Below, piece by piece: positions 3,624 through 18,202 of a stretch of DNA of 64,000 nt. Both the position numbers and the translations under genes were made by a program. Origin of the DNA: Candidatus Pacearchaeota archaeon (GTDB taxonomy: Archaea; Nanobdellota; Nanobdellia; Pacearchaeales; GW2011-AR1); assembly GCA_027021195.1 (NCBI GenBank), contig JALUUW010000003.1, positions 4,843 through 68,842 on the forward strand, written 5' to 3'. The notes beneath the pieces are model-generated. The model was given only the letters and a program-made list of their open reading frames with translations. It was not told where the DNA came from and did not search any database. Position 1 is the first letter of the stretch. Each line of letters starts with the position of its first letter.

Positions 3624-3839
3624 CTAAGGAAAACAGCCTAATTTTTCATGTGCTTTTATTAAAAAATCCCTGAAATCTTTTTTGCTTTCCCATACAGGAT
3701 TTAACTTGTTCCTGATTAAATCAAAATCTATCTTCTTTAATCTTCTAATCTCTGCTAATTCACTTATCATTCTTTCGTACTTTTCTTTTGATATTTTTGC
3801 CATTTCCATAATAGCTAAATGGGGCTGATATTTATACAA
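3624..3839 (-). CDS. Hypothetical small protein (71 aa), last gene of the minus-strand rSAM operon
   Basis: ORF-track ORF, tightly spaced (23 nt) after the upstream gene on the same strand. No recognisable motif. Confidence 0.3.
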   Translation of the reverse strand: MYKYQPHLAIMEMAKISKEKYERMISELAEIRRLKKIDFDLIRNKLNPVWESKKDFRDFLIKAHEKLGCFP

Positions 3840-3862
3840 TTTTCTAAATAAAACAGGGAATC

Positions 3863-4531
3863 TTATATCTTAATTCTTTTAACATATTCTATACATTCAT
3901 TAATTAGAGGAATTATATCTGGATTATGCTTCCACGTTTCCATTACTCTCTTTCTTAATTCTTTATGTTCAGCATAGCCTTTATCTTCAACAAACCATAG
4001 ATCTCTACACTCTAAATTTAAGATTGCAGTTAAAGACTCATTAACATACTCTATTTCTCTAAACCCTAGCTGATTTCTAATTAAAGGCAAATGTGTTTTT
4101 TCCATCTGTAAATGCATTAATTCATGTCCACATGTTCTTAAATTTTGCAACAGAGGTCTTCGAATTGAGACCATGAAAGAATCCTCCTCCACATTATAAG
4201 GACATCTTCCAGCAGTTGTAATATATGCATTAAATTCATTTGAATATATTTTGTGTTTGGTAATTTTTTCTAACCTTTCAAAAAACCTGTTATTTATTTT
4301 TCCCCAAGAGTTCTGCAATGTTTCTAAAAAGATGTCTAAATGGCCTGAAGAATATAATGGTTGAATATACTGTTCAATCTCTTCCCTACATTCTTCAAAT
4401 TTTCTATTTTTCCACCTCTGTAGGACTGACCCTCTTTCTAATTCATTCTCCCATGGATGCTCGTAGTTGCTAGTTTCCCATATATTCCAAAGGTCTTTTT
4501 CCTTATCAAACTTAAAAATTACTTTTGACAT
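3863..4531 (-). CDS. HExxH-motif protein, putative metallopeptidase (222 aa)
   Basis: RTCGHELMHLQ...REIEYVNE gives an HExxH plus downstream Glu. It has the same motif class as ORF 48..587. Confidence 0.4.
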   Translation of the reverse strand: MSKVIFKFDKEKDLWNIWETSNYEHPWENELERGSVLQRWKNRKFEECREEIEQYIQPLYSSGHLDIFLETLQNSWGKINNRFFERLEKITKHKIYSNEFNAYITTAGRCPYNVEEDSFMVSIRRPLLQNLRTCGHELMHLQMEKTHLPLIRNQLGFREIEYVNESLTAILNLECRDLWFVEDKGYAEHKELRKRVMETWKHNPDIIPLINECIEYVKRIKI

Positions 4532-4547
4532 ATTCTTTTTTTGAAGG

Positions 4548-5072
4548 TTAAGCTTTTTGTTTATTTTTTAATAGTAATAAAATAACATTATGTTTATGGG
4601 GGGGCAAATTATCATGCTCTTCAATGGGGGTCTCATACATTCCTTCCTTCATTATTTCCCAATCAGAATATAGGTTTTTTAATTGTTTTAATGAAGGATA
4701 AAACCTATTTTGTGCATTTCTTGCCATAGGGTCTTTATCTGAAAAACAGATGATAAAAGTATGTCCTTGCTCAGAGGTATGTGTTTGTATCTTTTTTAAA
4801 ATATTTTGTGCAGTTACCTTATCTAAAAAATGCAAAACTAACGAAGCAATTATTAAGTCATATTTCTCTTTGAATTCAAAATTTGTTATATCTTCATTAA
4901 AGAATTTAAAATTTTTCTGGGAGATTTCCATAGGTCTTTTATCTACTCCAAGAACTTTTACGCCTTGTTTGGCAAATCTGAGAGATTTATGCCCTTTCCC
5001 ACAACCCAGATCCAAAACATTTTGAGGCTGTAGTTCTTTAAGATATTCTTTGACTTTATCCCTTATTATCAT
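4548..5072 (-). CDS. Class I SAM-dependent methyltransferase
   Basis: Motif I VLDLGCGKG, motif II-like KVLGVD and motif III-like DLIIASLVLHF. Confidence 0.7.
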   Translation of the reverse strand: MIIRDKVKEYLKELQPQNVLDLGCGKGHKSLRFAKQGVKVLGVDKRPMEISQKNFKFFNEDITNFEFKEKYDLIIASLVLHFLDKVTAQNILKKIQTHTSEQGHTFIICFSDKDPMARNAQNRFYPSLKQLKNLYSDWEIMKEGMYETPIEEHDNLPPHKHNVILLLLKNKQKA

Positions 5073-5108
5073 TTATTAATTCTTTAAGTTTATTTTATTT
5101 AATTCTTT

Positions 5109-6170
5109 CTAATCTTGTGAGCTTCCCTGCACATATTCTTTAAAACACATAGGGTCTTTGGCCATATAATCTCCTGTTACTGCATAAGCAATTGCCCTAC
5201 ATCCTCTGCAGTGCACCACTTTATCACAAAGAGTATTCTCCCTCATTTTATTCAAATCTCTTAAATTTTGCATTACCTTGTTCTCTAAAATTAAATTACC
5301 TATTCCGTCACTTATGCGACCTATTTTAATAGGAAGTCTTCTACAAGGATAAACAGTTCCGTCCGATAATATTGAAAGCATTCTAAATCCTGCAGAACAC
5401 CCCCAAAGATATTTATTTTGCTCCTTTGCTGTTTTTATTACTTCGTTTTCTTTTTCCAATATTTGCCAAAGAACATCAGATTGAAGGACATTAATCTTAT
5501 CTCTATATTTTTCATTTAGTCTTTCAGTTTCTTTAACCATCTCGTAGATTTCTTTAGCATTAATAAATTCAGGATCTTTAATTCCTAAGTTTGAATCTGG
5601 ATTATAAGTTTTAAAACCCACTTTTTTAGCTCCTGCTAAAATTGCATTTTGGATAACATCCTCAAACTCTTTTTTATTAGACTGCATAAGAGTCATGGCT
5701 ACTGTAACATTTAAGCCTTCTTTTGAAGCATTTCTTATCCCTTCAATTGCCATATCATATGCAAAATCTTTTCTCCTAATTTTATTATGTGTGCGCTTAG
5801 ATCCATCAAGAGAAACTTGTATTGCTTCAACTTTTTGCTCCAAAAGTTCTCTAGCTTTTTTAGGAGTAATTAATGTGCCATTAGTTAACAAATTTGTTAT
5901 AACTTTTTTCTTACAAGCATATTCTAAAATTTCAAGATGATCTTCCCTCATTAAAGGATCTCCTCCCGAAATTGCGATTCTGGGTATCATCTCCCACCTT
6001 TTTGCTGTCTCTGCTAAATCATCTATCATTGATTTTACTTCATTTAAACTCATTAAATTATCATCTTGGATGTGGTCTACATTCCCTTCGTTGTTATGAT
6101 AACAATGGGAGCATTTAAGATTACAATCATTTGTGGAATCCCCTTGAATATATAAGTGTCTTTTAGCCAT
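5109..6170 (-). CDS. Radical SAM enzyme with C-terminal SPASM-like domain
   Basis: CNLKCSHC (CX3CX2C) near the N-terminus, ISGGDPL SAM-binding segment, and a C-terminal Cys-rich region (CSAG...CRRL...CDKVVHCRGC). Confidence 0.8.
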   Translation of the reverse strand: MAKRHLYIQGDSTNDCNLKCSHCYHNNEGNVDHIQDDNLMSLNEVKSMIDDLAETAKRWEMIPRIAISGGDPLMREDHLEILEYACKKKVITNLLTNGTLITPKKARELLEQKVEAIQVSLDGSKRTHNKIRRKDFAYDMAIEGIRNASKEGLNVTVAMTLMQSNKKEFEDVIQNAILAGAKKVGFKTYNPDSNLGIKDPEFINAKEIYEMVKETERLNEKYRDKINVLQSDVLWQILEKENEVIKTAKEQNKYLWGCSAGFRMLSILSDGTVYPCRRLPIKIGRISDGIGNLILENKVMQNLRDLNKMRENTLCDKVVHCRGCRAIAYAVTGDYMAKDPMCFKEYVQGSSQD

Positions 6171-6212
6171 TACAAATTAAGAGCAGTTTTTCTAAATCTA
6201 TTTGGAATTTTT

Positions 6213-6338
6213 TTATTCTAAAGAATAGACATCATCTGCGTAACATGCATCTGGACCACAAGCATCGCAAGGGTCACAGTGATAACGATCTTTCTCTTGA
6301 GACGCTTTATTAGTTATATAAGAACTAATATCTAACAT
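6213..6338 (-). CDS. Candidate RiPP precursor peptide, 41 aa, MLDISSYITNKASQEKDRYHCDPCDACGPDACYADDVYSLE (not in the supplied ORF track)
   Basis: I translated the minus strand by hand: ATG at 6338, TAA at 6213–6215. It carries 4 Cys in a 12-residue acidic core. It sits 42 nt upstream of, and on the same strand as, the rSAM/SPASM gene 5109..6170. Confidence 0.5.
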   Translation of the reverse strand: MLDISSYITNKASQEKDRYHCDPCDACGPDACYADDVYSLE

Positions 6339-6390
6339 ACCCTTAAGAAAAGCTTGTTCCTCAGCAGTTCTCTCCAGTTTATTTGTTTTT

Positions 6391-6400
6391 GCTATAAAAA
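6391..6400 (-). promoter_or_regulatory. TATA-like box (TTTTTATAGC on the minus strand) ~55 nt upstream of the small Cys-rich ORF
   Basis: AT-rich TTTATA element preceded by a purine-rich BRE-like stretch. Position relative to the ATG is compatible with a short 5' UTR. Confidence 0.25.
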
Positions 6401-6583
6401 GCCAACAACCTTAATATATTTAAATTTTATTGTAATGGATTTATTTTGTAGTGCCTAAGTAACTTAAAAAGTTATTTATTTGCAGATTTTTCAGAAGAAA
6501 CAACCTCAAACTCAGTTGAGCCTATATAATTTCCATCTACATTAAACACTGTTTTGCAAATCCCTAATTGTAATGATTTGTCA

Positions 6584-6615
6584 AAACAAAATCCTCTTCA
6601 TTTACATTTCTTGAA
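6584..6615. repeat. 32-nt exact copy of an internal coding segment of the giant gene 11026..14769 (second copy at 11601..11632)
   Basis: AAACAAAATCCTCTTCATTTACATTTCTTGAA is identical at both loci. At 11601–11632 it encodes NVNEEDFVYT on the minus strand. Confidence 0.8.
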
Positions 6616-6639
6616 AACAAATTGTTTCATTTAATCCAT

Positions 6640-6740
6640 ATACCCCGCAGCTCTGCTGCGGTTGGGAGCTTCACTTCAGAACGAGATGGGGCAGAAGTCA
6701 TGACTCCAGAATTAGCGGATGTGTCTTAACAGGAAGTCTT
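6640..6740. ncRNA. GC-rich structured patch, candidate small RNA (unclassified)
   Basis: Local GC is well above the window average. It contains the perfect hairpin GCAGC-TCT-GCTGC flanked by CCCC...GGGG. No ORF with a start codon spans it. Confidence 0.25.
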
Positions 6741-6801
6741 TCTCCTCTGGAAGAATACGTTCTTCTCTCAAAAACCCTTCCCTATCAGCTATTCTAAGGG
6801 T

Positions 6802-7386
6802 TCACTCAGATGTTCTGCTGATTTCATTCAGATATTCTGCTAATTGCCTCATATCATCAGGCTTCCCCTCTAATTCAGAATAATATTTATTGTCCATTTC
6901 AAAGTAAAACCTATTCACGAAATCAATAGTCTCTTTGTATTTGCTTATGCCTTTTTTCTCAACTAATTTATTAAAGCAGTCAATATATCTCATTAGGGCT
7001 TCAGTCAACTCCCTTGTTTCCTCGCTCTCCTTAAGCAGGGCTTTATCCATATTAGAATATGCTTTATCCAAAAATTCAATTACTTCTTTATAATTCTCAA
7101 CCCCTTTTTTTTCCACCAATTTGTAAAAAGCACACGCATATTCTGTTAAAGCCATAGTCAGGTCCCTGATTTCCGGGTCTTTGATTCTATGTATCTCTTT
7201 CTGGAATCTATCCATATCATCAAGTTCTTTTTCTATTGTCTCTTGGAAAGTTTGGTTTTTTATTTTTGACCGAAAAATGATTCCGTGTTCCACTAGACCT
7301 TTATGGAATCCTCTTAATCCTTTCAATATCTTTTCATTTAATTTAATTTTTTCTGCTTCTATCATTTTAATCTTACATAGTTCCAC
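6802..7386 (-). CDS. Hypothetical helical protein with an internal tandem repeat (~45-aa unit: LT.AL..Y...F.KLVEKKG...YKE.I.F...)
   Basis: Two clearly similar segments in the translation (LTMALTEYACAFYKLVEKKGVENYKEVIEF / LTEALMRYIDCFNKLVEKKGISKYKETIDF). Confidence 0.4.
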   Translation of the reverse strand: MELCKIKMIEAEKIKLNEKILKGLRGFHKGLVEHGIIFRSKIKNQTFQETIEKELDDMDRFQKEIHRIKDPEIRDLTMALTEYACAFYKLVEKKGVENYKEVIEFLDKAYSNMDKALLKESEETRELTEALMRYIDCFNKLVEKKGISKYKETIDFVNRFYFEMDNKYYSELEGKPDDMRQLAEYLNEISRTSE

Positions 7387-7438
7387 CTACCCTTATGCAT
7401 TAATAAAAAAGACAAAAAAAGAAATTATCTTTCAGGTC

Positions 7439-7564
7439 TTATTTCTTTTCAGATCCTTCAGTCATTTCTAAAACCTTCTCATTTGGCATAGAGGTTTCTA
7501 CAAGACCCAAATGGAAATTCTCAAGACCTTCCAACATTTCCCTGTTAAATCCACATAGGGGCAT
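7439..7564 (-). CDS. Small ORF (41 aa, MPLCGFNREMLEGLENFHLGLVETSMPNEKVLEMTEGSEKK) paralogous to residues ~18–40 of the adjacent protein 6802..7386
   Basis: Manual minus-strand translation. LEGLENFHLGLVE resembles LKGLRGFHKGLVE of the neighbouring gene. Confidence 0.25.
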   Translation of the reverse strand: MPLCGFNREMLEGLENFHLGLVETSMPNEKVLEMTEGSEKK

Positions 7565-7624
7565 TTTCTTTTCCTCCTAATTTAGTTAACTATAATATAT
7601 AATTACTTTATATAAACTATTCTA

Positions 7625-8668
7625 TTGGATAATTTTACAAAAAAGAAATATTTATATATTGGTACTTATTTTATGTATAAAATGATGAAATTGGATGTAT
7701 ATGACCGGAGAATTTTGGAGGTTTTAATAGAAAACTCCGAAGAGCAAATAAGCGCTATTGCCAAAAAGATAAGGCTCAGAAGAGAAAACGTTAACTATCG
7801 GATAAACCGCATGGTTAAATCAGGTCTGATAAAAGAATTTAACACAATCTTAAATGAAAGAGCGTTGGAGCTTTCCCACTATGTTGTTTTTGTAGAACTG
7901 ATTAAACTGGAAGAAAAAACAGAGCTGGAAATTATAGATTATCTCAGGAATAGCTCCTTTGTGAGCTGGATAGGAACTTCAGCAGGGAGATGGAGCCTGG
8001 TTTTTGATATAATAGCCTATGATAAAGGCTCAAATTTTGAAAAGATATTAACGGAGTTTCTCAAAAGATTTGGCGGAGATCATATTGAAAACTACGAGGT
8101 TTTGAGGCTGAATAAAAGAGATTATTTTGCATCAAAGTTAATTGGCAAAGAAAAATATTTCCATGAAAATGCTGAAAGCAAGGCCTCTCTTAAAAGATTG
8201 GACAATATAGATCTCAGAATACTTTCATTGCTAAACAAAAATTCAAGAAAAACTTTGGTAGAAATATCTTCTAAAATAGGCTTGACTCCAAATGGAGTTA
8301 ATAATAGGATTAAGGGCCTAATCAATAATGGCATTATAACAGGATATACGATTTCCATTAATTGGAAGAAATTAGGCTATGAGTGGTTCACAATACAAAT
8401 TAAGCTGCACAAGTATGGTGAAGAAGTATATGCCAAAATGGAATCTTTTTTCAGGAATCACAAGAAAGTGGTGTTTTACTACAGATATCTTGGAGGAAGC
8501 TGGGACTATGATATAGGGGTTTTGGTTCAGAATTCAGACGAATTAAGGGATTTTATCAATGAATTCAGGAGAAATCTTTCGGATGTTTCCAAAATCTCTG
8601 ATGTTTTTTTGACTCTTGAAGAAATAACAGGATATAAAATGCCTGAAGGGGTTTTTAATCCTTCTTAA
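7625..8668 (+). CDS. Lrp/AsnC-family transcriptional regulator with two tandem HTH_AsnC-like units
   Basis: LDVYDRRILEVLIENSEEQISAIAKKI and LDNIDLRILSLLNKNSRKTLVEISSKI are both Lrp-type HTH segments, each followed by a regulatory-domain-like region. Confidence 0.6.
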   Translation: MDNFTKKKYLYIGTYFMYKMMKLDVYDRRILEVLIENSEEQISAIAKKIRLRRENVNYRINRMVKSGLIKEFNTILNERALELSHYVVFVELIKLEEKTELEIIDYLRNSSFVSWIGTSAGRWSLVFDIIAYDKGSNFEKILTEFLKRFGGDHIENYEVLRLNKRDYFASKLIGKEKYFHENAESKASLKRLDNIDLRILSLLNKNSRKTLVEISSKIGLTPNGVNNRIKGLINNGIITGYTISINWKKLGYEWFTIQIKLHKYGEEVYAKMESFFRNHKKVVFYYRYLGGSWDYDIGVLVQNSDELRDFINEFRRNLSDVSKISDVFLTLEEITGYKMPEGVFNPS

Positions 8669-8689: not shown

Positions 8690-10177
8690 TCAGCTGTTAT
8701 ACCCCTCAACTCCGATAAAATTTGTTGAGCCTCCGCAGTCTCCAAGAGAGATACATGCATTATTCATCTCTTTCTTCCATGACTCTGAAAGGCACTCACA
8801 GTTTTTCACGCACTTTTCCTTTCCAGTCAGCCCTTTTTCAAATACTACTGTGCATTGAGTGTCTGCTATAGAGCATAAAGATTCAGCCTCAGTGTCCTCT
8901 TCCCAAAAATTAAATCCAGGGGCATTTTCAGGAACGCATCCTATTGAAGACCATTTGCAGTCTCTCCTGTCTTTATTCTCGCAGTCTTTTTTGGTTGTTT
9001 GAGAGGAGCAGTCCTGCCATTTATTTACTCTGCATGCAGCTGTCTTAAATCCGTCAATGTCGTCCTGGACACAGACTTCCTGCCTGAAATCCGCGCACGG
9101 CTCTATGCTTACCTCTCCGTTATAACACACCAGCCTGAAATGCCTGCTTCCAGGAAGGCTTTTGTCTGTCCCGCTTGCATCTGCGCACCATGTTTCCCCA
9201 TGCTTATATTTTTTTCCAAGATAATTGCAGCTTAAGTCTCTGCAGATGTTGTCTCCGTAAGTTGGCTTTACTCTGTCCTTTCCTCTTTCATAGGATTTGC
9301 AGGTGCTTCCCAAAAAATAATCGCAGTTGCCGCACCCGGATGATCCGGCATTTCCGTCTGCTGAACTAAATCCGCAGCTCTTTTCCTTTCCATAAGCCTT
9401 TGTCCAGTAGTTTTTGTCTTTTATTTTTGAGGCATCATAAATATTCGCAGGATTTCCGCAGCTGTCAACAAAGAAGACTTCATCTCTTCCTTCAATGCAC
9501 GTTGTTCTTTCTGAGGGTCCGCAGTTTGTTGCAAGCTCTTCTGCAGAGCATAAAAGCCCCTCGTAAAACTCTACATTGGAATCAGGAGAGCTCGCTTCCA
9601 TTTTTCGGCACTCTCTTTTTGTTATGAACTTGCATGTTCTTGCCATCTCTTCAGGATCCTCAAACACACATGCTCCTTTGACATCTGAAGTAGCAGAAGC
9701 AATGCATTCTATCTCGCTTCCTATGTTTGTCCTGAAGTCAGTTTCGAGCCCGTAAAGGGACGAAAGCCTTTTGCATCTCGTCTGCGTTACAAAAGCAGCC
9801 TGGTCTCCTATCAGGCAGCACCCAAGAGAGCATTGGGGGATTTCATCCATCTTCCCTTCGTTCCATACCCCTCCTGAATCCTCGCATACTTTTTGAGGAG
9901 TGTTTTCCATGCAGGTTCCCTCCTGGCTGTCTATGCAGGTTCCAAGCTTGCAATAAGAGGTCGCCTCGCAGGAAGTCGGGACTTTTCTGTATGAGCTGTC
10001 GCATTTATCCTGAGGAGCGTTCTGGCACCATGCATTGTTTACTGTTTTTTCGCAGCAGTATGAAACCTCTCCGACAGCTGAGACAATTGCAATATATGCT
10101 ATGACTGCCAAAAAAATCAGCGCAACTCCTGCTGCTAACCCTTTTTCAAAAACATTATTTGTCTTGTTTCTTCCCAT
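8690..10177 (-). CDS. Secreted Cys-rich protein (495 aa), N-terminal signal anchor. It is a paralog of the N-terminal half of the 1247-aa protein.
   Basis: N-terminal hydrophobic helix and ~50 Cys. It shares colinear blocks with 11026..14769 (e.g. CSLGCCLIGDQAAFVTQTRCKRLSS vs CQKGCCVLGDNAQFVTEKRCEKLSS, and C-terminal CISLGDCG). Confidence 0.6.
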   Translation of the reverse strand: MGRNKTNNVFEKGLAAGVALIFLAVIAYIAIVSAVGEVSYCCEKTVNNAWCQNAPQDKCDSSYRKVPTSCEATSYCKLGTCIDSQEGTCMENTPQKVCEDSGGVWNEGKMDEIPQCSLGCCLIGDQAAFVTQTRCKRLSSLYGLETDFRTNIGSEIECIASATSDVKGACVFEDPEEMARTCKFITKRECRKMEASSPDSNVEFYEGLLCSAEELATNCGPSERTTCIEGRDEVFFVDSCGNPANIYDASKIKDKNYWTKAYGKEKSCGFSSADGNAGSSGCGNCDYFLGSTCKSYERGKDRVKPTYGDNICRDLSCNYLGKKYKHGETWCADASGTDKSLPGSRHFRLVCYNGEVSIEPCADFRQEVCVQDDIDGFKTAACRVNKWQDCSSQTTKKDCENKDRRDCKWSSIGCVPENAPGFNFWEEDTEAESLCSIADTQCTVVFEKGLTGKEKCVKNCECLSESWKKEMNNACISLGDCGGSTNFIGVEGYNS

Positions 10178-10178
10178 T

Positions 10179-10967
10179 TTACACTAAAACTTCATCAACT
10201 CCGTATCCAGGAGGCCATGCAAGGCTTCTTGAAGCAAACTGGAATTTATTTCCGCTGTTGAGGTCTGTTAAAATATAGATTGTAGTGCCGTCGGATTGTT
10301 TTTTCTTCTCAACTTTCAAATCACGGTAATAGTTCATGTAGGTTGTTGTTTCAGCATCTCCGTATCTTGTTTCCCATGCAATTATGCTGTTTGCAATACT
10401 TAATAGTTCATAAAGATTATTGTTCAGGACTACTCTTAAATTGTCATAGCTTTCTGAAGATTCTTTTGTGAGAGTTAAGGAGTTGCTGAATGTAGCGACA
10501 ATTCTTTTTGGAAGCAGCTCAACATCAGGCTCTCCCTGCTTTAAGCTTACTTTATACCCTCTTTTCTCATAACTCTCTTTCATGGAATCAAAGCACTCTT
10601 TTGCCTTTCCTCTTATGTCTTTTTTTATCTCAGACTCAATGTGCTTTTTCAGCATTGGCTGCTGCACCACGCATGTTTTGTAGTACTCCTCAGTGTAGCA
10701 AAGATATTCTACTTTTTCATCATTATACAAAAAATAGTGTTCTGGCTTCAGGCTGCCACCCTGCATTGAAAGCCTTTCAACAGAATTTTTAATATCCTCT
10801 TCCATGCAGTTTTGAATAAATGCAGACGGATTCATGCTCTCGAGCCACAAATTAGACCCTATCTTTGGATAAAACAAGTAAGATAAAACACCTATAATCA
10901 CAATCATTATTGCAATTATGATGAAAATCGTCACTTGCCCCTTTCTTTTCCATGATATTTCCCGCAT
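10179..10967 (-). CDS. N-terminally TM-anchored protein (262 aa), paralog of 14771..15601
   Basis: Motifs shared with 14771..15601: QVTIFII (TM), SMQGG, YLCYT, PML, CFD. It lies 2 nt upstream of the Cys-rich gene. Confidence 0.5.
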   Translation of the reverse strand: MREISWKRKGQVTIFIIIAIMIVIIGVLSYLFYPKIGSNLWLESMNPSAFIQNCMEEDIKNSVERLSMQGGSLKPEHYFLYNDEKVEYLCYTEEYYKTCVVQQPMLKKHIESEIKKDIRGKAKECFDSMKESYEKRGYKVSLKQGEPDVELLPKRIVATFSNSLTLTKESSESYDNLRVVLNNNLYELLSIANSIIAWETRYGDAETTTYMNYYRDLKVEKKKQSDGTTIYILTDLNSGNKFQFASRSLAWPPGYGVDEVLV

Positions 10968-11025
10968 TTTTATTTAAAGGAAATCTGATTTATAAATGTT
11001 GATAGTTTTTAATGTTTTTAATAAA

Positions 11026-14000
11026 TTAAATTGATTCCGGCCTTAATATAATTGCACAGCCAGGATTTGTATTTCCTCCAAGATCTTCGCATTTGATGTA
11101 ATGCCTCTTTCCAGACTCCCACTCGCTGGTATGGGTTCTTGAAAATACATCTGTCATAGGCTTTGCATCCTCTCCTCGAATGTCAAATCCGCATCCATTA
11201 AAACTGTAATAGCATTTTGCATCTTCGTCTGTTATTACCTTTAACTCTCCCTCGCTGTAAGCCCTTACTATTTTTGGAGCTTCAGTGTCAAGCTCTAAAG
11301 TGAATACTGCATTTCCATAAGCAGTATTTCCTGCATCGTCTTCGCACTTTACATAAATATTGTAGTCTCCTTTCATCATAGTGTTGAAGTTCTGCTTATG
11401 CCTCCTGGAGAAGCTCTCAAAAAACAGAGTCATGTCATCATATCCTGAGAAACTGTAATAACAGGAAGACTTTCCATTCCTCGCCCCTCCGGAAGTCTCA
11501 ACTTCAAGGTCTACTGAGATTGGCTCGAACCATCTCTTGATTTTTCCCTGAGGGGTTATTGAGGTTATGTTAAGATTTGTCTCTGAAACATAGAGTGTAT
11601 AAACAAAATCCTCTTCATTTACATTTCTTGAAGTGTTCTCTGGAGGAAGCCATGGCTGGTCTTTGCACCTGATGTAAAAATTGTTTTCTCCTTCTGCAAG
11701 CCCTTTAAGAGTGGTGCTGCACTGCCATCCCAACAGCTCCCTCTCTGTTATTCCTGTTTTGCAATCCATTGAATTGCTCATTTCCTCATAGCTTTTTCCG
11801 CTTTCAGTGCTGTACCTGCATTCAGCAGGCTCACTTAGGTAAATCTGAAGAGGCGTTTCTGTAACATTATATTTCAGGAAACTTTCATCCTCTGGAACTG
11901 CAACTGTTCTTGAATGGTCTACAGCAGTTGTGTCTGGCCCTGAGTTAATGCAGAAATTCACCGTATACTCGTCAATATTGTAGTTTCCATGATAGTCCTT
12001 GCACTTAACATACATATTCATGTTTCCAAACATCTCTCTTATGTCTCCTGCAACATCATAGACGCTTAAGCTGTCCAGGCTTGGCATTGAAAATGAAAAA
12101 GTGTGGTTGAGAGTGAATGCATTTTGCTCAACAGGGTATCCTCTCATTTCGTCATATTCTGTTTTCTGGAAATCAAACTTGCACTGCGCAAATTCATCTG
12201 TTTTTAGGCTGAAGCTGACAGGAGTGAATTCAGGGATGCAGTTTCCGTTTTCCCTTCTTATCTCAACTCTTTTTGCATCTTCGTTATTGAACTTGTAGCC
12301 CTCGTCAATATCTCCTGCAGAAATTACAGGAGGATTGCTTTCATAAGGGATGCTCTCGCAGACAGGGTTTTCTGTTTCTTCATTAAGGATTCTGCATGCC
12401 TGCCCAAGGCTCTCGCATCTGTATCTTGTGCAAGGCATTCCTTTTTCAGCAAGCTCGTTGCATCTTTTGCAATTCTCTCCTCCTGCAGGAGCCTGCCATG
12501 GCATGCATGTAAACTCAACAACCCTTTCTTTTGTCTTTCCCCATCCAACAACTATGACATATACCATTATTATTACTGCTGCTGCCAGTGCGTATGTTCC
12601 AAAATTCAATCCCCATTTGAGCCATCCGACCTTCATTAGGCCAAGTATTCCTCCTGCAACCCCTCCTGCTACTGTCAGGACTGTTGCTGCATTTCCAGAC
12701 CTTCCCAAAGACTGGGCAATAAATGCTCCTGCAACTGTTCCTATTGCAAACCCTGCTGCTGCCCATGCGAATGCTCCTATGGATGTATATGTGGTAGAAA
12801 CAACTGCTTCAGATCCTGCAAAAATTGTCTTTGTTCCCAATAATGATGTTGTTGTTTCATAAGCTCCATAAGTGTAGGTGGTAGTTCCTATTCCCAAATG
12901 GCTAATGGCCATAATCAAGGTTCCAGCTCCTCCTGAAACTTCTCCAAGCTGCTTTATTACAGCCTGTATTTTATCCTCTTTAGGCTTTTTGCCAGAATTA
13001 CCGCTTATTGAAGAGATGTAATCATCAATTTCCTGGGGCTTTACATACTGGCCTTCTACAGGATCTGCATAATCCTTATATCTTTCCCATGAAACACTTG
13101 GAGACCGCGTTACTTTAATGTTATCGCTTCCCTCTCCAATATAATTGATATAGCTTCCGCAATCTCCGAGGCTGATGCAAAGGTCATTCATCTGCTCTGC
13201 AAAAACTCCTTTCTCGCAATTGCAGTTCTCAATGCACTCCCACTTTCCTCTTGAGTTTTTTTGGTATATGACAGTGCATTTTTGATTTGCCATTGCGCAT
13301 ATGCTGTCTGCAATAGAGCTTTCCCTTTGCCTGAACCCTCTTGGATATCTTCCAACGCAGACATCAAAGCTGAACCCGTCATCAATATTAATGTTTTTAA
13401 TCATGCAGTGCTTGTTTTTATTGCATTTTTCAGCCATGTTTCCCTGTGAATTGTAATCAAGGCACTTTGTAGCTTCGTTCACAACGCATGAGGCTACTGA
13501 AAAGCTTTTTCCGTTTTCCTCTATTTCTGATTCTGTGCAAAGCCCCCCTCTATAGTCACTGCATCCCTCTGTCTTTACTTCTCCATCAATACATATTTTT
13601 CTCCAGTGCCTGCTTCCTGCAGGATCTTTCCCTTCTCCTATATAAGAGTCATAAGCACACCAGCTCTCCCCGTTCTTTCTCTCTTTTCCGCCTGTCTCAG
13701 GAGATGCAGGGCAGTTTTTGTTTTTGCATATATAATCTCCGTCTTTTGCTTTTTTTCCTCCTGCCTCGTCTGAAGGCGCGCACATGCTTCCAAGGAAATA
13801 ATTGCAGTTTCCGCACTCTTCTGACTGAATATTGTCTGAATCAGGGTTGCAGCTTTCCTGTTTGCTTAACACCTTTCCGTTATTCCACGAAAAATCCCTG
13901 TCTGAGGAATAGATGTTTTCCCTGTTTCCGCAGGAATCAATCCAGTAAATCTCGTCTTTTCCCTCAATGCAGCTTATGCTTGCCTGCCTTTCACATTCAA

Positions 14001-14769
14001 CCCCCATTTCTTTAAATTCCGGATTTGAACATAGATGGTCTTTGTAAAAGTCTCCCTGAATGCTGAGGCATCTTGATTCTGTTGTAAATTCGCATCTGCC
14101 TCCTTCAAGGATGCATGCCCCTTCAAACTGGCTTGCAGAAAGAGCAAGGCATTCAAATTCTGTTTCAAGGTCTCTAAAGTCTTTTTTAAACCCGTAAAAA
14201 GATGAAAGTTTTTCACACCTTTTTTCTGTAACAAACTGCGCATTATCTCCCAAAACACAGCATCCTTTCTGGCATTCGCTTACTAAACATGATTCTTCAT
14301 TTTTCCATATTCCTCCTCCAGACTCGCATTTTTTTCTGGTGGATTTTGTTGTGCATAGCCCCTCATCTTCGTCAATGCAGCATCCTATCTTGCAGTCAGC
14401 AACTTCATCGCATTTTGTCGGAAGAGGATTGTCGCAGCTTTCAGTATCAAAAAACCCGACATCCTGGCATATTGCTCCGCTTTTTGTAACAGGGCAGCAT
14501 TTCCATGACTCTTCTTCTGCAGAAACAATTCCTATCTGTTTTATTGATAAAAATCCCACTAAGAGGCTTGCTCCTGCAGCAATGAGATTCCCAAGACTGT
14601 CTTTTCCTTTATCTCTTTTTATTATAATGGAGCTGCTGTCAGGCTGGCTGCTCATTCCTATAACATAGCTGGTTGCAGGACTCATATTAACCAGAAGGAA
14701 AATCTGGAACATAACAACAGCTAGCAAGCTTAGTTCTGTTTTTCTTTCCCTGATTTTTATTGACTTCAT
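11026..14769 (-). CDS. Giant secreted/membrane Cys-rich protein (1247 aa). It has a signal peptide, an N-terminal Cys-rich region, a central Gly/Ala/Thr-rich multi-TM segment and a C-terminal region with four repeated beta-rich domains.
   Basis: Signal-like N-terminus. Hydrophobic stretch ~aa 610–745. C-terminal repeats YVKCKDYHGN / YIRCKDQPW / YVKCEDDAGN / YIKCEDLGGN. Confidence 0.6.
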   Translation of the reverse strand: MKSIKIRERKTELSLLAVVMFQIFLLVNMSPATSYVIGMSSQPDSSSIIIKRDKGKDSLGNLIAAGASLLVGFLSIKQIGIVSAEEESWKCCPVTKSGAICQDVGFFDTESCDNPLPTKCDEVADCKIGCCIDEDEGLCTTKSTRKKCESGGGIWKNEESCLVSECQKGCCVLGDNAQFVTEKRCEKLSSFYGFKKDFRDLETEFECLALSASQFEGACILEGGRCEFTTESRCLSIQGDFYKDHLCSNPEFKEMGVECERQASISCIEGKDEIYWIDSCGNRENIYSSDRDFSWNNGKVLSKQESCNPDSDNIQSEECGNCNYFLGSMCAPSDEAGGKKAKDGDYICKNKNCPASPETGGKERKNGESWCAYDSYIGEGKDPAGSRHWRKICIDGEVKTEGCSDYRGGLCTESEIEENGKSFSVASCVVNEATKCLDYNSQGNMAEKCNKNKHCMIKNINIDDGFSFDVCVGRYPRGFRQRESSIADSICAMANQKCTVIYQKNSRGKWECIENCNCEKGVFAEQMNDLCISLGDCGSYINYIGEGSDNIKVTRSPSVSWERYKDYADPVEGQYVKPQEIDDYISSISGNSGKKPKEDKIQAVIKQLGEVSGGAGTLIMAISHLGIGTTTYTYGAYETTTSLLGTKTIFAGSEAVVSTTYTSIGAFAWAAAGFAIGTVAGAFIAQSLGRSGNAATVLTVAGGVAGGILGLMKVGWLKWGLNFGTYALAAAVIIMVYVIVVGWGKTKERVVEFTCMPWQAPAGGENCKRCNELAEKGMPCTRYRCESLGQACRILNEETENPVCESIPYESNPPVISAGDIDEGYKFNNEDAKRVEIRRENGNCIPEFTPVSFSLKTDEFAQCKFDFQKTEYDEMRGYPVEQNAFTLNHTFSFSMPSLDSLSVYDVAGDIREMFGNMNMYVKCKDYHGNYNIDEYTVNFCINSGPDTTAVDHSRTVAVPEDESFLKYNVTETPLQIYLSEPAECRYSTESGKSYEEMSNSMDCKTGITERELLGWQCSTTLKGLAEGENNFYIRCKDQPWLPPENTSRNVNEEDFVYTLYVSETNLNITSITPQGKIKRWFEPISVDLEVETSGGARNGKSSCYYSFSGYDDMTLFFESFSRRHKQNFNTMMKGDYNIYVKCEDDAGNTAYGNAVFTLELDTEAPKIVRAYSEGELKVITDEDAKCYYSFNGCGFDIRGEDAKPMTDVFSRTHTSEWESGKRHYIKCEDLGGNTNPGCAIILRPESI
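11601..11632. repeat. Second copy of the 32-nt exact repeat (inside the CDS 11026..14769)
   Basis: Identical to 6584..6615. Confidence 0.8.
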
Positions 14770-14770
14770 T

Positions 14771-15601
14771 TTAAAGCCCAGGAGGTATTATGCAGCTTCT
14801 CACTGCAAACCTGAATTTTTCTTTGCTGTTTTCATGCCTGACAGTATAGATTGTTTCTAAATCGCTTGTCTTGAATCTGTCTATATTGAATTGGGGATTA
14901 ATAATCATAAAGCCAAGATAGTCAAAATTGCAGAACCTTGCCTCTTGACTCAAAATCTCCTGCACAACAGCTGCAATATCATAAAATCTGCTTGGAATAT
15001 TCGCTTCAAGGTTTTCTTTTTTTGAGCTCTCCTCTGTTCTTGTAAGAGTAATCTCGCTGTCTGTTTTAATAATCACTCTCTTTGAGATTAAGTCAACTTC
15101 AAATCCCCTGTAATCCATGCTGACTTCATAATTCTGTTTTTCAAGATTGTTTTTTAATTCATCAAAACATACTTCCATGTCCTCTGCAATATAATTTTTT
15201 ATTTCTTTTTTTAGATGGCTCATCAGCATTGGCTCGTGATTTATGCAGGGAACATAATAATTTTGAGTATAGCATAAATAAGAGATATTTACAGGGTCTT
15301 CACCTTCAAACCTGAAGGTTTTGTAGAGCTCTGGTTCAATATATCCTCCCTGCATGGAGATTGTGCCAATAGCTTCCTTGACCTTGCCTTCAATACACGA
15401 GCTTAAAAAAGCTTCAGGATTTTTTTCAGGGCTCTTTCCTGTTTTTATAGGAGCTTCTCCCCTAAAGAATAAAAACGATGAAATTGCAACAACAACAATC
15501 ATGCCTGCAATTATGAAAATAGTAACCTGCGAGCGTTTTGCCTTTGGAAAAGCCCTTTTATTAAACAGCAGGCCTAAGGCACGAGTTCCTCTTTTTTTCA
15601 T
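14771..15601 (-). CDS. N-terminally TM-anchored protein (276 aa), paralog of 10179..10967. First gene of the four-gene minus-strand operon.
   Basis: Shared motifs with 10179..10967. It ends 1 nt before the start of the giant gene. Confidence 0.5.
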   Translation of the reverse strand: MKKRGTRALGLLFNKRAFPKAKRSQVTIFIIAGMIVVVAISSFLFFRGEAPIKTGKSPEKNPEAFLSSCIEGKVKEAIGTISMQGGYIEPELYKTFRFEGEDPVNISYLCYTQNYYVPCINHEPMLMSHLKKEIKNYIAEDMEVCFDELKNNLEKQNYEVSMDYRGFEVDLISKRVIIKTDSEITLTRTEESSKKENLEANIPSRFYDIAAVVQEILSQEARFCNFDYLGFMIINPQFNIDRFKTSDLETIYTVRHENSKEKFRFAVRSCIIPPGL

Positions 15602-15706
15602 ATTTACTTAAATATTTTGCTGCTTATAAATCTTGTTGGATATGCTGTCTTTGTCTTCTGTCCAGACTCTCCCCTGTTATTTTCCGGATATTGATTTCCC
15701 TTCAAG

Positions 15707-16588: not shown

Positions 16589-18202
16589 ATGCAGGAAAAT
16601 CTCAAAAATTCATCAGGGGAGCAAAGCTTCAAAGAGCAGAGGATAAGGAAGATAACTCATTTGTATTACTCAAGGCCGGACATACAGAAAGCAATTTTTG
16701 AATTCTCCAAAAACAGGGAAATTTCACCAAGATATTTTGAAGGCTTCGGCAAAAGGCCTGACAGCTTCCAGTATAAAGGAGATATATTTGAGCTTGTAAA
16801 AAAAGGAGCGACATCCTTTCATTGCTCAGAGGAATTGTGGCAGGACCCTCTTAAAATAACCACTGGAATGACAGAATCCCAGTCAAATGAGCTAAGAATC
16901 GGCTGGGACTTATTAATTGATATTGACTGCAAGTGGTTTGATTATTCCAAGCTGGCGGCAAAAGCAATAATTGGAGTTTTGAAAGATAATGGAATTAAAA
17001 ATCTGGGATTGAAGTTCTCAGGAAGCAAAGGATGGCACATCTTAATTCCCTGGAAATCTTTTCCAAAAGAAATAAATGGGGTCAGTTCATCAAATCTTTT
17101 TCCAGAGCTTCCAAGAAAAATTATAAATTATATAAGATTCCAGTCAGAAAAAAAACTAAAGGAGATGCTTCCTGAAGATTTTGAGGAGCAGTTTAAAGGA
17201 GTGAATATTAAGAGAGGGATAAAATGCAACAGGTGCAGTGAAATTGCCAGCCAGTATGTTTATGCTGTTTTTTCCTGCAGAAAGTGCGGAAGAAAAGAAT
17301 ACAAAAAATTCCATTCAAAAGGCCAGATGAAAAAATACAGCTGTCCTGAATGCGGGGCTGAATTTAAAATAGAGAGCCAACTTACCTATCATGAGTGCCA
17401 TCAGTGCAGGATAAATTCAAAATATAACCCAGATGATTTCTCGCAAACAATACAGGAGGATTTGTTTGATTTAATGGGGCTGGATATTATTCTGGTTTCT
17501 CCAAGGCACTTGTTCAGGATGCCTTATTCCCTCCACGAGAAAACAGCACTTGCAAGTGTAGTAATTGATGAGCAGGATATTGACGGTTTTCAGTTAAAAG
17601 ATGCCAGCCCTATGAAAATCTCTTCAGAAAAAATAAAAAATTTTTCCCCTGTCTCAGCAGAAGAAGCTGAAGCTGAAGCTCTTGTGAGAGAGGCTCTTGA
17701 CTGGACAAAAGACCTTCAGATTGCAAGAGGGGAAACAGAAGAAAAAATAACGGGAAAATATGCAGAGTACAAGCCGGTTAAGCTTGACAATCTTTCAGAG
17801 CAGAATTTTCCGCCATGCATAAAAAATATTCTAAAAGGAATTTCAGACGGAAAAAAGAGGGCTTTGTTTGCTTTAATAAATCTTTTCAGAAGCGTAGGAA
17901 TGGACAAGGAAAAAATGGAGAATGAAATTTATGAGTGGAACAAAAAAAACAATCCGCCGTTAAAAGAAGGGTATATTAAATCCCAGCTTTCATGGGCTTA
18001 CAGAAAAAAGCCAATAATGCCCCCTAACTGCAAGGAATTTTATCAGGGAATTGCAGCATGCCAGCCAGATGATTTGTGCCTCAACAAAGGAATAAAGAAT
18101 CCAGTTAATTATGTTGTAAGAAGAAGCATTTCAAAAAGAAAAGGGCATAGAAAGTCCAGGACAAATGGAAACAGTAAGGATAATTTTAAAAAGAAGAATT
18201 GA
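16589..18202 (+). CDS. priS: DNA primase catalytic subunit PriS fused to a PriL-CTD-like Fe-S domain, with an inserted Zn-ribbon
   Basis: AEP motifs LLIDIDCK and FSGSKGWHIL. A CxxC...CxxC insert (CNRCSE...CRKCG, CPECG...CHQC). The C-terminal segment has four Cys (FPPC...PPNC...AAC...DLC) resembling the PriL Fe-S domain. Confidence 0.65.
   Translation: MQENLKNSSGEQSFKEQRIRKITHLYYSRPDIQKAIFEFSKNREISPRYFEGFGKRPDSFQYKGDIFELVKKGATSFHCSEELWQDPLKITTGMTESQSNELRIGWDLLIDIDCKWFDYSKLAAKAIIGVLKDNGIKNLGLKFSGSKGWHILIPWKSFPKEINGVSSSNLFPELPRKIINYIRFQSEKKLKEMLPEDFEEQFKGVNIKRGIKCNRCSEIASQYVYAVFSCRKCGRKEYKKFHSKGQMKKYSCPECGAEFKIESQLTYHECHQCRINSKYNPDDFSQTIQEDLFDLMGLDIILVSPRHLFRMPYSLHEKTALASVVIDEQDIDGFQLKDASPMKISSEKIKNFSPVSAEEAEAEALVREALDWTKDLQIARGETEEKITGKYAEYKPVKLDNLSEQNFPPCIKNILKGISDGKKRALFALINLFRSVGMDKEKMENEIYEWNKKNNPPLKEGYIKSQLSWAYRKKPIMPPNCKEFYQGIAACQPDDLCLNKGIKNPVNYVVRRSISKRKGHRKSRTNGNSKDNFKKKN

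What the first reader, a model, noticed from the sequence alone, without database searches (positions are those of the whole stretch)
8690..15601. Tandem duplication of a two-gene surface module (TM-anchored ~270-aa protein plus giant Cys-rich secreted protein)
Seen: four co-directional minus-strand genes with 1–58 nt gaps. Genes 14771..15601 and 10179..10967 are clear paralogs (QVTIFII, SMQGG, YLCYT, PML, CFD). Genes 11026..14769 and 8690..10177 are paralogs over ~480 aa (colinear Cys blocks, CISLGDCG near the end). The longer copy carries an extra multi-TM Gly/Ala/Thr-rich segment and a ~500-aa C-terminal repeat region. It sits beside the PCNA and primase genes, so this is core chromosome and not an obvious island. 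Inference: a lineage-specific cell-surface or host-attachment apparatus that diversified by duplication. Large Cys-rich extracellular proteins are typical of episymbiotic small archaea, but this family is not one I can name.
Basis: partly seen in the sequence, partly recalled or inferred. Interest (0 to 1): 0.7.

Follow-up and report, generated by a model that had tools for sequence, protein, structure and literature searches.

The report
Conserved DPANN archaeal cell-surface gene cluster
These four genes are two ancient sister copies of a cell-surface protein unit that hundreds of tiny Pacearchaeota/Woesearchaeota archaea keep next to their DNA-replication genes; no one has characterised it, and it may be how these cells contact partner cells.

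Summary
There are four co-directional minus-strand genes: S1 (276 aa), L1 (1247 aa), S2 (262 aa) and C2 (495 aa). S1/S2 are paralogs (35% identity, E 1e-45). L1 residues 50-545 and C2 are paralogs (37%, E 1e-88).

The duplication is old, not a recent lineage-specific expansion. In at least 294 loci from species-representative genomes, nearly all labelled Pace-/Woesearchaeota or Nanoarchaeota, the core order is PCNA | S2-C2-T2 plus four small prepilin-like genes. An optional S1-L1 unit occurs in 0, 1 or 2 copies. L1 is a fusion of C and T.

This window has S1-L1 and a truncated core. T2 and the four prepilin-like genes are missing.

S proteins and the four small proteins share a conserved [KR][GAS]-Q-hydrophobic N-terminus, which reads as an archaeal class III (prepilin-type) signal. 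C is a secreted domain with about 40 cysteines and no match among solved structures. T has glycine-zipper membrane helices followed by about four Ig-like domains.

S2 and C2 are almost as conserved as primase, so they are not fast-evolving adhesins.

S carries a weak MltG/YceG-like motif (Glu...Asp...PPG). That lead is inconclusive.

Best reading: a type-IV-filament-related envelope apparatus for cell or surface contact. No member has been characterised.

The parts
15624..15630 (-). TTTATAA, an archaeal TATA-box-like element 23-29 nt upstream of the S1 ATG. It suggests a leaderless S1-L1 transcript.
   Evidence: Read directly from the sequence. This is inference only, because the genome is AT-rich.
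14771..15601 (-). S1: a 276-aa protein. N-terminus is ...KAKRS|QVTIFIIAGMIVVVAISSFLFF (class III-signal-like; the site would lie between S24 and Q25). The ectodomain is alpha/beta with 6 Cys. It is the accessory paralog that pairs with the fused L1.
14777..14989 (-). Region of S1 (residues 205-275) carrying the MltG/YceG-like motifs QEILSQE221A ... KTSD247LETIY252 ... IPPGL.
   Evidence: The same spacing as in S2 and MltG was seen by inspection. Significance is inconclusive.
11026..14769 (-). L1: a 1247-aa fusion of a C-type Cys-rich domain with a T-type membrane and Ig-like region. Its start is 1 nt after the S1 stop (TAA-A-ATG).
13135..14517 (-). L1 residues 85-545: Cys-rich C domain, paralogous to C2. 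Of its 45 Cys, 37 are conserved in at least 85% of homologs.
   Evidence: The AF2 model is confident here (most 10-residue blocks have pLDDT 75-98). No solved structure matches it more strongly than the single Ig-domain hits do.
12790..13134 (-). L1 residues 546-660: linker, partly Gly/Thr-rich. Most of it is predicted disordered (pLDDT below 50 over about L1 588-664).
12547..12789 (-). L1 residues 661-741: three hydrophobic helices. Two are glycine-zipper-like (GxxxGxxxG) and one is a classical TM helix. They are followed by the conserved GWGKTKE sequence.
   Evidence: Pfam Glycine-zipper-2TM scores only E 0.19.
11029..12537 (-). L1 residues 745-1247: a small 7-Cys knot (C.PW.AP.GG..C..CN.....PC..Y.C.SLGQ.C) followed by about four Ig/FN3-like beta-sandwich domains, each with conserved Cys pairs.
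   Evidence: Pfam Big_13 scores 17.5 bits here, below the 27-bit cut-off, and 28.4 bits in the T2 ortholog of L001.
10989..10996 (-). TTTATAAA, a TATA-box-like element 22-29 nt upstream of the S2 ATG. This is the same distance as for S1 and suggests a second S2-C2 transcription unit.
   Evidence: Read directly from the sequence. Inference only.
10179..10967 (-). S2: a 262-aa protein. N-terminus is MREISWKRKG|QVTIFIIIAIMIVIIGVLSYLF (class III-signal-like; the site would lie between G10 and Q11). The ectodomain is alpha/beta with 4 invariant Cys. It is the core paralog that pairs with the split C2(+T2).
10206..10415 (-). S2 residues 185-254: MltG/YceG-like motif region, SIIAWE199T ... KQSD226GTTIY231 ... 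AWPPG254.
   Evidence: Statistically sub-threshold.
8690..10177 (-). C2: a 495-aa secreted Cys-rich protein with 43 Cys. It has a Sec-type signal with a conserved VSA site shortly before the first CC pair. Its start is 1 nt after the S2 stop (TAA-A-ATG). In this genome it is the last gene of the cluster.
7625..8668 (+). Convergent double Lrp/AsnC-type wHTH gene that ends 21 nt from the C2 stop. It marks the point where T2 and the four prepilin-like genes follow in relatives. It is a boundary, not a part of the apparatus.

Best explanation
The four genes are part of a conserved envelope gene cluster that, in these searches, was found almost only in Pacearchaeota/Woesearchaeota (GTDB Nanoarchaeota). 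I read it as encoding a membrane-anchored surface apparatus related to type IV filament systems.

The functional unit has three parts.

- S is a roughly 260-aa protein. Its N-terminus looks like an archaeal class III (prepilin-type) signal. After cleavage, the hydrophobic helix would hold S in the membrane or in a short pilus-like stack together with the four further prepilin-like proteins encoded downstream in relatives.
- C is a roughly 450-aa disulfide-rich domain exported through Sec.
- T has glycine-zipper membrane helices followed by a stalk of about four Ig-like domains.

C and T work together physically, because they are fused into one polypeptide in L1. Each S works with its own C/T, because the S type and the C/T type co-vary and the S and C genes are translationally coupled.

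The window carries the optional fused unit (S1-L1) plus a truncated core unit (S2-C2). L1 is then the only T-type protein seen in this window.

The most likely role is contact with another cell or a surface, possibly a walled bacterial partner.

Shown: gene structure, paralogy, synteny, conservation, signal motifs and domain folds. Inferred: prepilin processing, physical assembly and the contact function.
For: Paralogy and coordinates.

Family size and taxonomy: 1863 homolog clusters for C2 and 1784 for S2, named Pacearchaeota/Nanoarchaeota where named at all. At least 294 confirmed loci in species-representative genomes. 4361 representatives at 50% identity for the S profile.

Synteny: PCNA | [S1-L1] x 0-2 | S2 C2 T2 pil164 pil323 pil174 pil162. 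The extra unit is present 0, 1 or 2 times in 26, 26 and 3 loci. T2 plus the pilin-like genes are present in 42 of 46 loci with enough flank. T2 is missing only where an L1 is present.

Rosetta-stone and co-variation evidence: S1-type goes with a fused L1 in 29 of 34 cases and S2-type with a split C2 in 82 of 82. Both S->C junctions read TAA-A-ATG.

Class III-like N-termini: the consensus KRGQVTIFIII has Q11, T13, I14 and F15 at 90% or more. [KR][GAS]Q sits directly before the hydrophobic stretch in S1, S2, pil164, pil174 and pil162. pil323 shows mainly K-G plus a hydrophobic residue, and the crude scan found no motif in 20 of its 46 sequences. A basic residue at -2 and the importance of positions -2, -1 and +1 are the documented archaeal SPase III features (PMC3387779; PMC6098224).

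Structure: the AF2 S2 model has pLDDT 83.6, with a protruding N-terminal helix (9-39) and a globular alpha/beta head. The L1 model has pLDDT 83.9, with three helices followed by beta-sandwich domains that match Ig/FN3/cadherin-type adhesion ectodomains.

Extracytoplasmic chemistry: 58 of the 66 Cys in L1 residues 48-1247 are conserved, and a Sec-type VSA site is conserved.

Published context: Castelle et al. 2021 describe a module of 51 families, mostly of unknown function, specific to Pace-/Woesearchaeota (PMC8204110).
Against: No curated pilin or class III model (Pfam, NCBIfam) matches S or the four small proteins.

No type IV filament ATPase, platform protein or prepilin peptidase is encoded in the window. 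None is annotated in the 10-kb flanks of the two relatives examined.

The window lacks the four small prepilin-like genes altogether.

Topology is unresolved. Three spans, plus K/R enrichment after the third helix, would place the Cys-rich Ig stalk in the cytoplasm.

High conservation fits a housekeeping structural role at least as well as host recognition.

No expression, localisation or interaction data exist.
Confidence: 0.5

Rival explanations
1. A housekeeping envelope scaffold, such as an S-layer anchor or cell-wall-like complex, needed for cell integrity or division. On this reading it has no role in partner recognition, and the N-termini of S are simple signal anchors.
For: S2 and C2 are nearly as conserved as primase in the same genomes. 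The cluster holds a fixed position beside PCNA and primase in about 55 loci. A weak S-layer-like protein lies just downstream in L001. T resembles a membrane-anchored stalk of beta-sandwich domains.
Against: A plain anchor does not explain the conserved [KR][GAS]Q motif shared by most members of five unrelated families in one cluster. The copy number of the S1-L1 unit varies from 0 to 2, and T2 and the pilin-like genes have been lost in this genome. Both are unusual for an essential scaffold.
Confidence: 0.2
2. S is a divergent MltG/YceG-type glycan-strand cleaving enzyme, membrane-anchored like bacterial MltG. The S-C-T unit would then be a peptidoglycan-cutting or -binding complex aimed at bacterial cell walls.
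For: Three independent MltG models give the same weak, co-located hit. Pfam YceG is hit by 16 of 80 members (best E 1.1e-4), always S ~170-240 against profile 144-203. NCBIfam TIGR00247 gives E 0.009. JGI names one homolog YceG.

hhalign against four solved MltGs aligns S2 189-240 to EcMltG 208-259 without a gap, P 0.016. In that alignment EcMltG E218 (catalytic; the E218Q variant is inactive, PMC8135044) falls on S2 E199, conserved in 169 of 176 sequences. EcMltG D245 (Asp in 95% of YceG proteins, bioRxiv 10.1101/2021.03.06.434200) falls on S2 D226, which is D or E in 152 of 176. GLPPG falls on AWPPG.

A 4-sequence MltG HMM searched against 2837 ORFs of all loci hits only S proteins at E<1. 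All 55 hits lie on the catalytic segment, not the TM helix.

Context: Pace-/Woesearchaeota often carry murein-lytic proteins (PMC8204110, PMC9723730) and muramoyltetrapeptide carboxypeptidase (PMC11537232). The latter is present in this window at 2391..3416.
Confidence: 0.15
3. One reading: a recent, lineage-specific tandem duplication of a two-gene adhesin module that is diversifying for host attachment.
For: The paralogous pairs are tandem. The copy number of the S1-L1 unit varies among genomes. S1/L1 orthologs are more divergent than S2/C2 orthologs.
Against: The two paralog lineages are separate across the 80-plus loci compared. Orthologs are more alike than paralogs within this genome. 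The core copy is conserved at housekeeping level. The module has three parts and sits inside a larger conserved cluster.
Confidence: 0.05
4. A competence-like pseudopilus for DNA or nucleotide uptake. It would have five prepilin-like subunits, as in bacterial ComG systems, and would sit next to replication genes in organisms thought to scavenge nucleotides.
For: There are five prepilin-like families per cluster. The cluster is adjacent to PCNA and primase. Nucleotide scavenging has been proposed for Pacearchaeota (PMC8204110).
Against: No ComEA/ComEC-like or nuclease domain was found in any cluster protein scanned. C and T have no counterpart in competence systems. Adjacency to replication genes may simply reflect conserved gene order in small genomes.
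Confidence: 0.05
5. Envelope or fusion proteins left by an integrated virus or mobile element.
For: Only weak sub-threshold Pfam hits to viral envelope families (Baculo_VP91_N, WSS_VP, Chordopox_A13L). These fall on TM or short segments.
Against: Nothing above chance in PHROGs (best E 0.08). No tblastn match in 50,697 phage records. No relative on 2.9 million IMG/VR contigs. The chromosomal position is fixed beside PCNA and primase across hundreds of species.
Confidence: 0.02

Closest known systems
[quoted passage not shown]
   Same: The N-termini have a basic residue at -2, G/A/S at -1, usually Q at +1, and then a hydrophobic helix. Several different such proteins are encoded side by side. 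Three of them are pilin-sized (about 160-175 aa). Larger non-filament proteins carrying class III signals have a precedent in the bindosome sugar-binding proteins (PMC3387779).
   Different: No curated pilin or class III model is matched. No ATPase, platform or peptidase gene lies beside the cluster. The S head is an alpha/beta fold with no PDB match, not a pilin beta-sandwich. C and T have no counterpart in described archaeal systems.
Bacterial minor-pilin plus large adhesin operons (Pseudomonas FimU-PilVWXE + PilY1; the T2SS GspHIJK tip complex). This comparison rests on my own knowledge.
   Same: Four to five different pilin-like proteins of graded size (about 160-320 aa) are encoded together with a protein of more than 1000 aa with an adhesin-like build. 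This suggests a priming or tip complex and not a major fibre subunit.
   Different: No sequence or fold similarity was found or tested for PilY1, GspK or the minor pilins. T has its own membrane helices. The large protein here is a Cys-rich domain plus an Ig-like stalk, not a beta-propeller.
MltG/YceG endolytic murein transglycosylases (PF02618; PDB 2R1F, 4IIW)
   Same: Both have an N-terminal membrane helix followed by an extracytoplasmic domain. Motifs are colinear and equally spaced, with a conserved Glu (EcMltG E218 = S2 E199), a conserved Asp (D245 = D226) and a PPG.
Bacterial Ig-like domain adhesins (Big_13 and similar; tandem Ig/FN3/cadherin ectodomains)
   Same: The C-terminal ~430 aa of L1 and T2 fold as about four tandem beta-sandwich domains. 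The best matches are cell-adhesion ectodomains and bacterial adhesin stalks (e.g. GhpA, SiiE).
   Different: The domains carry conserved Cys pairs. They are preceded by a unique 7-Cys knot and glycine-zipper helices. L1 itself scores below the Big_13 cut-off.
Module 98 of Castelle et al. 2021 (PMC8204110): 51 protein families specific to Pacearchaeota and Woesearchaeota, mostly of unknown function
   Same: Same taxonomic restriction, same 'hypothetical' status, and same suggested link to symbiosis and bacterial cell walls.
   Different: That study treats the families in bulk. I could not map S, C or T to its family numbers. The gene cluster, its three-part unit, the C-T fusion and the prepilin-like signals are not described there, as far as I read the paper.

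Membership tests
Archaeal class III signal peptide / type IV pilin-like proteins | Processing site before the hydrophobic core: basic residue at -2, G/A/S at -1, then a hydrophobic H-domain of about 20 aa | tested here: met
   S2 has K9-G10|Q11VTIFIIIAIMIV and S1 has R23-S24|Q25VTIFIIAGMIV. The family consensus is KRGQVTIFIII, with Q11, T13, I14 and F15 at 90% or more. The same motif appears in most members of four further families of the cluster in relatives. The criteria come from PMC3387779.
Archaeal class III signal peptide / type IV pilin-like proteins | Match to curated N-terminal pilin or class III models (Pfam, NCBIfam) | tested here: not met
   No such family appears at E up to 1 for S1 or S2, or for the four small proteins and the S orthologs of L001.
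Archaeal class III signal peptide / type IV pilin-like proteins | A prepilin peptidase and a PilB/PilC-type ATPase and platform encoded in the genome | not testable with these tools
   None is present in the 64-kb window or in the 10-kb flanks of L001 and L003. The rest of the genome is not available.
Archaeal class III signal peptide / type IV pilin-like proteins | Pilin architecture: a protruding N-terminal helix carrying a globular head | tested here: inconclusive
YceG/MltG (PF02618) | Score above the Pfam gathering threshold (32.4 bits) | tested here: not met
   Scores are 12.9-16.3 bits in the members examined. 16 of 80 members hit at E up to 1, best 1.1e-4. The window's S1 and S2 themselves do not hit.
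YceG/MltG (PF02618) | Catalytic Glu (EcMltG E218) and the conserved neighbouring Asp (D245) | tested here: inconclusive
   Under the ungapped hhalign alignment these fall on S2 E199 (169 of 176) and D226 (D or E in 152 of 176). The alignment itself is not significant (P 0.016-0.088).
YceG/MltG (PF02618) | YceG fold as in 2R1F/4IIW, including the LysM-like subdomain | tested here: not met
Bacterial Ig-like domain (Big_13, PF19077) / Ig-like fold | Pfam score above 27 bits, or a beta-sandwich fold | tested here: met
Glycine zipper 2TM domain (PF05433) | Pfam score above 24.2 bits | tested here: not met
   12.1 bits, E 0.19 on L1 673-710. GxxxG repeats are visible by eye.
Virus or mobile-element envelope proteins | Homologs in viral genomes or viral protein families | tested here: not met
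   PHROGs gives nothing above chance (best E 0.08). No phage tblastn match. No relative on IMG/VR contigs.

The most novel reading that the evidence does not exclude
S is a prepilin-like subunit whose head carries a working MltG-type active site (Glu199/Asp226). Together with the disulfide-rich C head, the T base and the four small pilin-like proteins, it would build a short pilus-like device. That device would cut glycan strands of a bacterial partner's peptidoglycan at the contact site. It would be an archaeal organelle for breaching bacterial cell walls, and it would point to bacteria as hosts of Pace-/Woesearchaeota.
Probability: 0.1. Interest if true: 0.85.

Novelty: new variant of a known kind. 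Interest (0 to 1): 0.55.

Why it matters
Pacearchaeota and Woesearchaeota are among the most widespread uncultured archaea. Their hosts, and how they attach to them, are unknown.

This cluster is one of the few large, near-universal, lineage-specific sets of envelope genes in the group. Two of its domains are confidently modelled yet match no solved structure.

Knowing that the unit is S + C + T, that C and T are physically linked, and that five proteins carry prepilin-type signals gives concrete targets. These can be used for co-folding, antibody or cryo-ET labelling in enrichments, and enzymatic tests.

If the MltG-like site is real, it would give direct molecular support to the idea that these archaea live on bacteria.

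Tried and rejected
1. Curated family searches (Pfam, NCBIfam, PHROGs) on all four proteins gave nothing above cut-off.
2. Profile searches of the S, C/L1/T, pil174 and pil323 alignments against all PDB sequences gave nothing.
5. Viral origin is rejected.
6. I searched the window for T2 or the four small pilin-like genes with tblastn and with HMMs built from 39-53 orthologs. They are absent.
7. I looked beyond the window ends and found only radical-SAM genes on one side and DNA polymerase B on the other.
8. The representative-library search with the S profile gave family size only. The best 150 hits are all S-like, so it could not test the MltG link.
9. Enlarging the S alignment to strengthen the MltG signal weakened it instead.
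10. The member-wise Pfam scan of C2 homologs gave only a spurious coronavirus NSP4 hit. This serves as a warning control for the YceG hits.
11. Literature searches found no description of this cluster.
12. The positive-inside analysis did not resolve the topology of T.

Full report
**Observation.** The region 8690..15601 holds four co-directional minus-strand ORFs exactly as described. They are S1 (14771..15601, 276 aa), L1 (11026..14769, 1247 aa), S2 (10179..10967, 262 aa) and C2 (8690..10177, 495 aa). S1 and S2 align at 35% identity over 215 residues, E 1e-45. L1 residues 50-545 align with C2 at 37% identity over 519 columns, E 1e-88. A tblastn of all four proteins against the window finds no further copies. 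Both S->C junctions read TAA-A-ATG. Each S gene has a TTTATAA(A) box starting 29 nt upstream of its ATG. This suggests two leaderless, translationally coupled transcription units, which is an inference. PCNA and a fused PriS-PriL primase lie immediately upstream. The same arrangement, including the C2 end, recurs in two independent assemblies.

**Organism and family size.** Homologs number 1863 clusters at 90% identity for C2 and 1784 for S2. The best hits are 60-74% identical. Nearly all are unnamed. Where a source gives a name, it is Pacearchaeota, Nanoarchaeota, Diapherotrites or plain 'archaeon'. A scan of one genome per GTDB species confirmed at least 294 loci. Nearly all are labelled Pacearchaeota, Woesearchaeota or Nanoarchaeota. 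A profile of S finds 4361 representatives at 50% identity with E up to 1e-3, of which 532 have E up to 1e-30. The window is therefore core chromosome of a DPANN archaeon from the Pace-/Woesearchaeota group.

**The real unit and cluster.** In relatives the cluster is longer. On one side lie p443(-), a 600-aa Cys-rich membrane protein(-) and primase(-). On the other side the order is PCNA(+), sometimes a 61-65-aa wHTH gene, then [S1-L1] in 0-2 copies, then S2, C2 and T2, then four small proteins of about 164, 323, 174 and 162 aa.

T2 (about 710 aa) is the paralog of the C-terminal half of L1, at 34% identity. So L1 is a fusion of a C-type and a T-type protein, and the functional unit is S + C + T.

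Among loci that contain both PCNA and S2, 26 have no S1-L1 unit, 26 have one and 3 have two. Among 46 loci with at least 6 kb of sequence after C2, 42 have T2 plus the small genes. T2 is missing only where an L1 is present.

The window has S1-L1 and S2-C2, but no T2 and none of the four small genes. This was tested with tblastn and with HMMs built from 39-53 orthologs. Instead, a convergent Lrp/AsnC-type gene and a lower-GC stretch follow.

**Age of the duplication.** S1-type proteins go with a fused L1 in 29 of 34 cases. S2-type proteins go with a split C2 in 82 of 82 cases. Mean identity is 43% for S1-S1, 51% for S2-S2 and 32% for S1-S2. In 112 of 118 sequences the nearest neighbour is of the same type. 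The duplication therefore predates the divergence of these genomes.

Against the window's proteins, median identity in the same 48 genomes is PCNA 71%, primase 64%, S2 60% and C2 51%. This is housekeeping-level conservation. It is not what a diversifying adhesin would show.

**Anatomy of T.** After a largely disordered linker come three helices (L1 661-687, 692-713 and 721-741). Two are glycine-zipper-like. Next is a conserved 7-Cys knot, then about four beta-sandwich domains with conserved Cys pairs. These match Ig/FN3/cadherin ectodomains and bacterial adhesin stalks. Big_13 passes its cut-off in the L001 T2 ortholog.

The topology is unresolved. Three spans, plus the K/R-rich segment after the third helix (2.43 K+R per 15 aa), would put the Cys-rich stalk inside the cell. 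That conflicts with its chemistry.

**A lead: an MltG-like motif in S.** Three independent MltG/YceG models give the same weak, co-located signal:
- Pfam YceG is hit by 16 of 80 members, best E 1.1e-4, at 13-16 bits against a cut-off of 32.4.
- NCBIfam TIGR00247 gives E 0.009.
- JGI names one homolog YceG.

hhalign of 118 S sequences against four solved MltGs aligns S2 189-240 with EcMltG 208-259 without a gap, at P 0.016 and probability 2.9%. In that alignment the catalytic E218 (the E218Q variant is inactive; PMC8135044) falls on S2 E199. D245 (Asp in 95% of YceG proteins; bioRxiv 10.1101/2021.03.06.434200) falls on D226. GLPPG falls on AWPPG. These residues are conserved in both S types. 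An HMM of the four MltGs, searched against 2837 ORFs from all loci, hits only S proteins at E<1. All 55 hits lie on the catalytic segment.

Several results argue against the lead:
- The signal weakens with a more diverse S profile, to P 0.088.
- S lacks the last ~55 residues of the domain and no LysM-like subdomain was detected.
- The same kind of scan gives a clearly spurious hit of similar strength for C2, to coronavirus NSP4_N in 54 of 85 members, best E 8.8e-5.

I rate this lead inconclusive. The context makes it worth testing. Pace-/Woesearchaeota are reported to carry murein-lytic proteins (PMC8204110, PMC9723730) and muramoyltetrapeptide carboxypeptidase (PMC11537232). An S66 LD-carboxypeptidase is encoded in this window at 2391..3416.

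**Mechanism (best reading, confidence 0.5).** The cluster encodes a type-IV-filament-related envelope apparatus. S and the four small proteins would be processed at the G/A/S|Q site and held together through their N-terminal helices. C would be exported and dock onto S and T. T would provide the membrane base and an Ig-like stalk.

The C-T fusion in L1 and the strict pairing of S type with C/T type argue for physical association. This is an inference. No type IV filament machinery is encoded nearby, so this step cannot be tested here.

Rival readings are:
- a housekeeping envelope scaffold (0.2);
- an MltG-like peptidoglycan-cutting complex (0.15);
- a competence-like pseudopilus (0.05);
- a viral origin (0.02; contradicted).

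**Comparison with what is known, and novelty.** I found no paper describing this cluster. Castelle et al. 2021 note a module of 51 families, mostly of unknown function, specific to these two lineages. S, C and T probably belong to it, although I could not map them to its family numbers.

I file the cluster as a new variant of a known kind: a type-IV-filament-like surface system with Ig-stalk adhesin features. It has two domains with no match among solved structures. Membership in the pilin, YceG and glycine-zipper families is not established.

**Verdict.** Interest is 0.55. This is a large, conserved and entirely uncharacterised envelope system in a major uncultured archaeal group. It now has a defined unit and testable hypotheses, but no functional evidence yet.

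Noticed in passing
window 18199..20064 (+) and 20444..21775 (+): There is a 621-aa protein with 31 Cys, a signal peptide, a C-terminal TM helix and a Pro/Arg-rich tail. Next to it is a 443-aa signal-bearing protein. Both keep their place beside primase in 27-39 related loci (median 47% and 40% identity). They may belong to the same envelope system, on the other side of the primase/PCNA pair.
   Followed up: partly
window 1..8600: This stretch has lower GC (29-33%, against 37-43% in the cluster). It occupies the place where T2 and the pilin-like genes lie in relatives. It encodes a double Lrp/AsnC wHTH protein, two radical-SAM/SPASM enzymes (550..1716, 5109..6170), with another just beyond the window start and a third at 50317..51624, a BSP/MA-type peptidase and three methyltransferases. 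It could be an inserted peptide-modification island.
   Followed up: partly
window 2391..3416 (-): An LD-carboxypeptidase (Peptidase_S66 N- and C-domains, E 1e-35 and 4e-29) in an archaeon. This enzyme trims murein tetrapeptides and is reported as common in Pacearchaeota (PMC11537232). It fits scavenging of bacterial cell-wall peptides.
   Followed up: partly
window 16589..18202 (+): The primase is a PriS-PriL fusion of 537 aa. It carries an extra segment (about residues 186-300) with several CxxC pairs and a weak CpXC hit. The tblastn alignment shows this segment is absent from the 433-aa ortholog in L001.
   Followed up: partly
L001 9028..9225 and L003 1907..2092: In relatives, a 61-65-aa winged-helix/HTH-like protein is encoded just upstream of S1 (between PCNA and S1 in L001). 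It overlaps the S1 start and could be a dedicated regulator. The window has only 105 bp there and no such gene.
   Followed up: partly
L016, L025, L075 (also L022): Some genomes carry two S1-L1 units in tandem before S2, so the copy number of the fused unit is 0-2. In two loci that have an L1 (L043 and L022), T2 is missing from its usual place.
   Followed up: partly
protein P0119 (confirmed): One C2 homolog (585 aa) carries an added plastocyanin/azurin-type copper-binding domain (PF00127, E 2e-11). It is the only recognisable domain fused to any C-family member seen.
   Followed up: no
window 22302..23048 (-): A 248-aa signal-bearing protein with a sub-threshold lamin-tail-domain hit (LTD, 28.8 bits against a 34.3 cut-off). 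It is one more predicted surface protein near the cluster.
   Followed up: no
S-family profile A1: The S profile finds 4361 representatives at E up to 1e-3, but only 1264 at 1e-10 and 532 at 1e-30. Only the best 150 hits are listed, so this large tail of distant relatives could not be inspected. It might link S to a known family.
   Followed up: no
L001 21328..23669: In L001 a large protein (over 780 aa) with a weak S_layer_C hit (23.5 bits against a 23.9 cut-off) lies just after the last pilin-like gene. A small HVO_A0114-type wHTH gene sits between them on the opposite strand.
   Followed up: no
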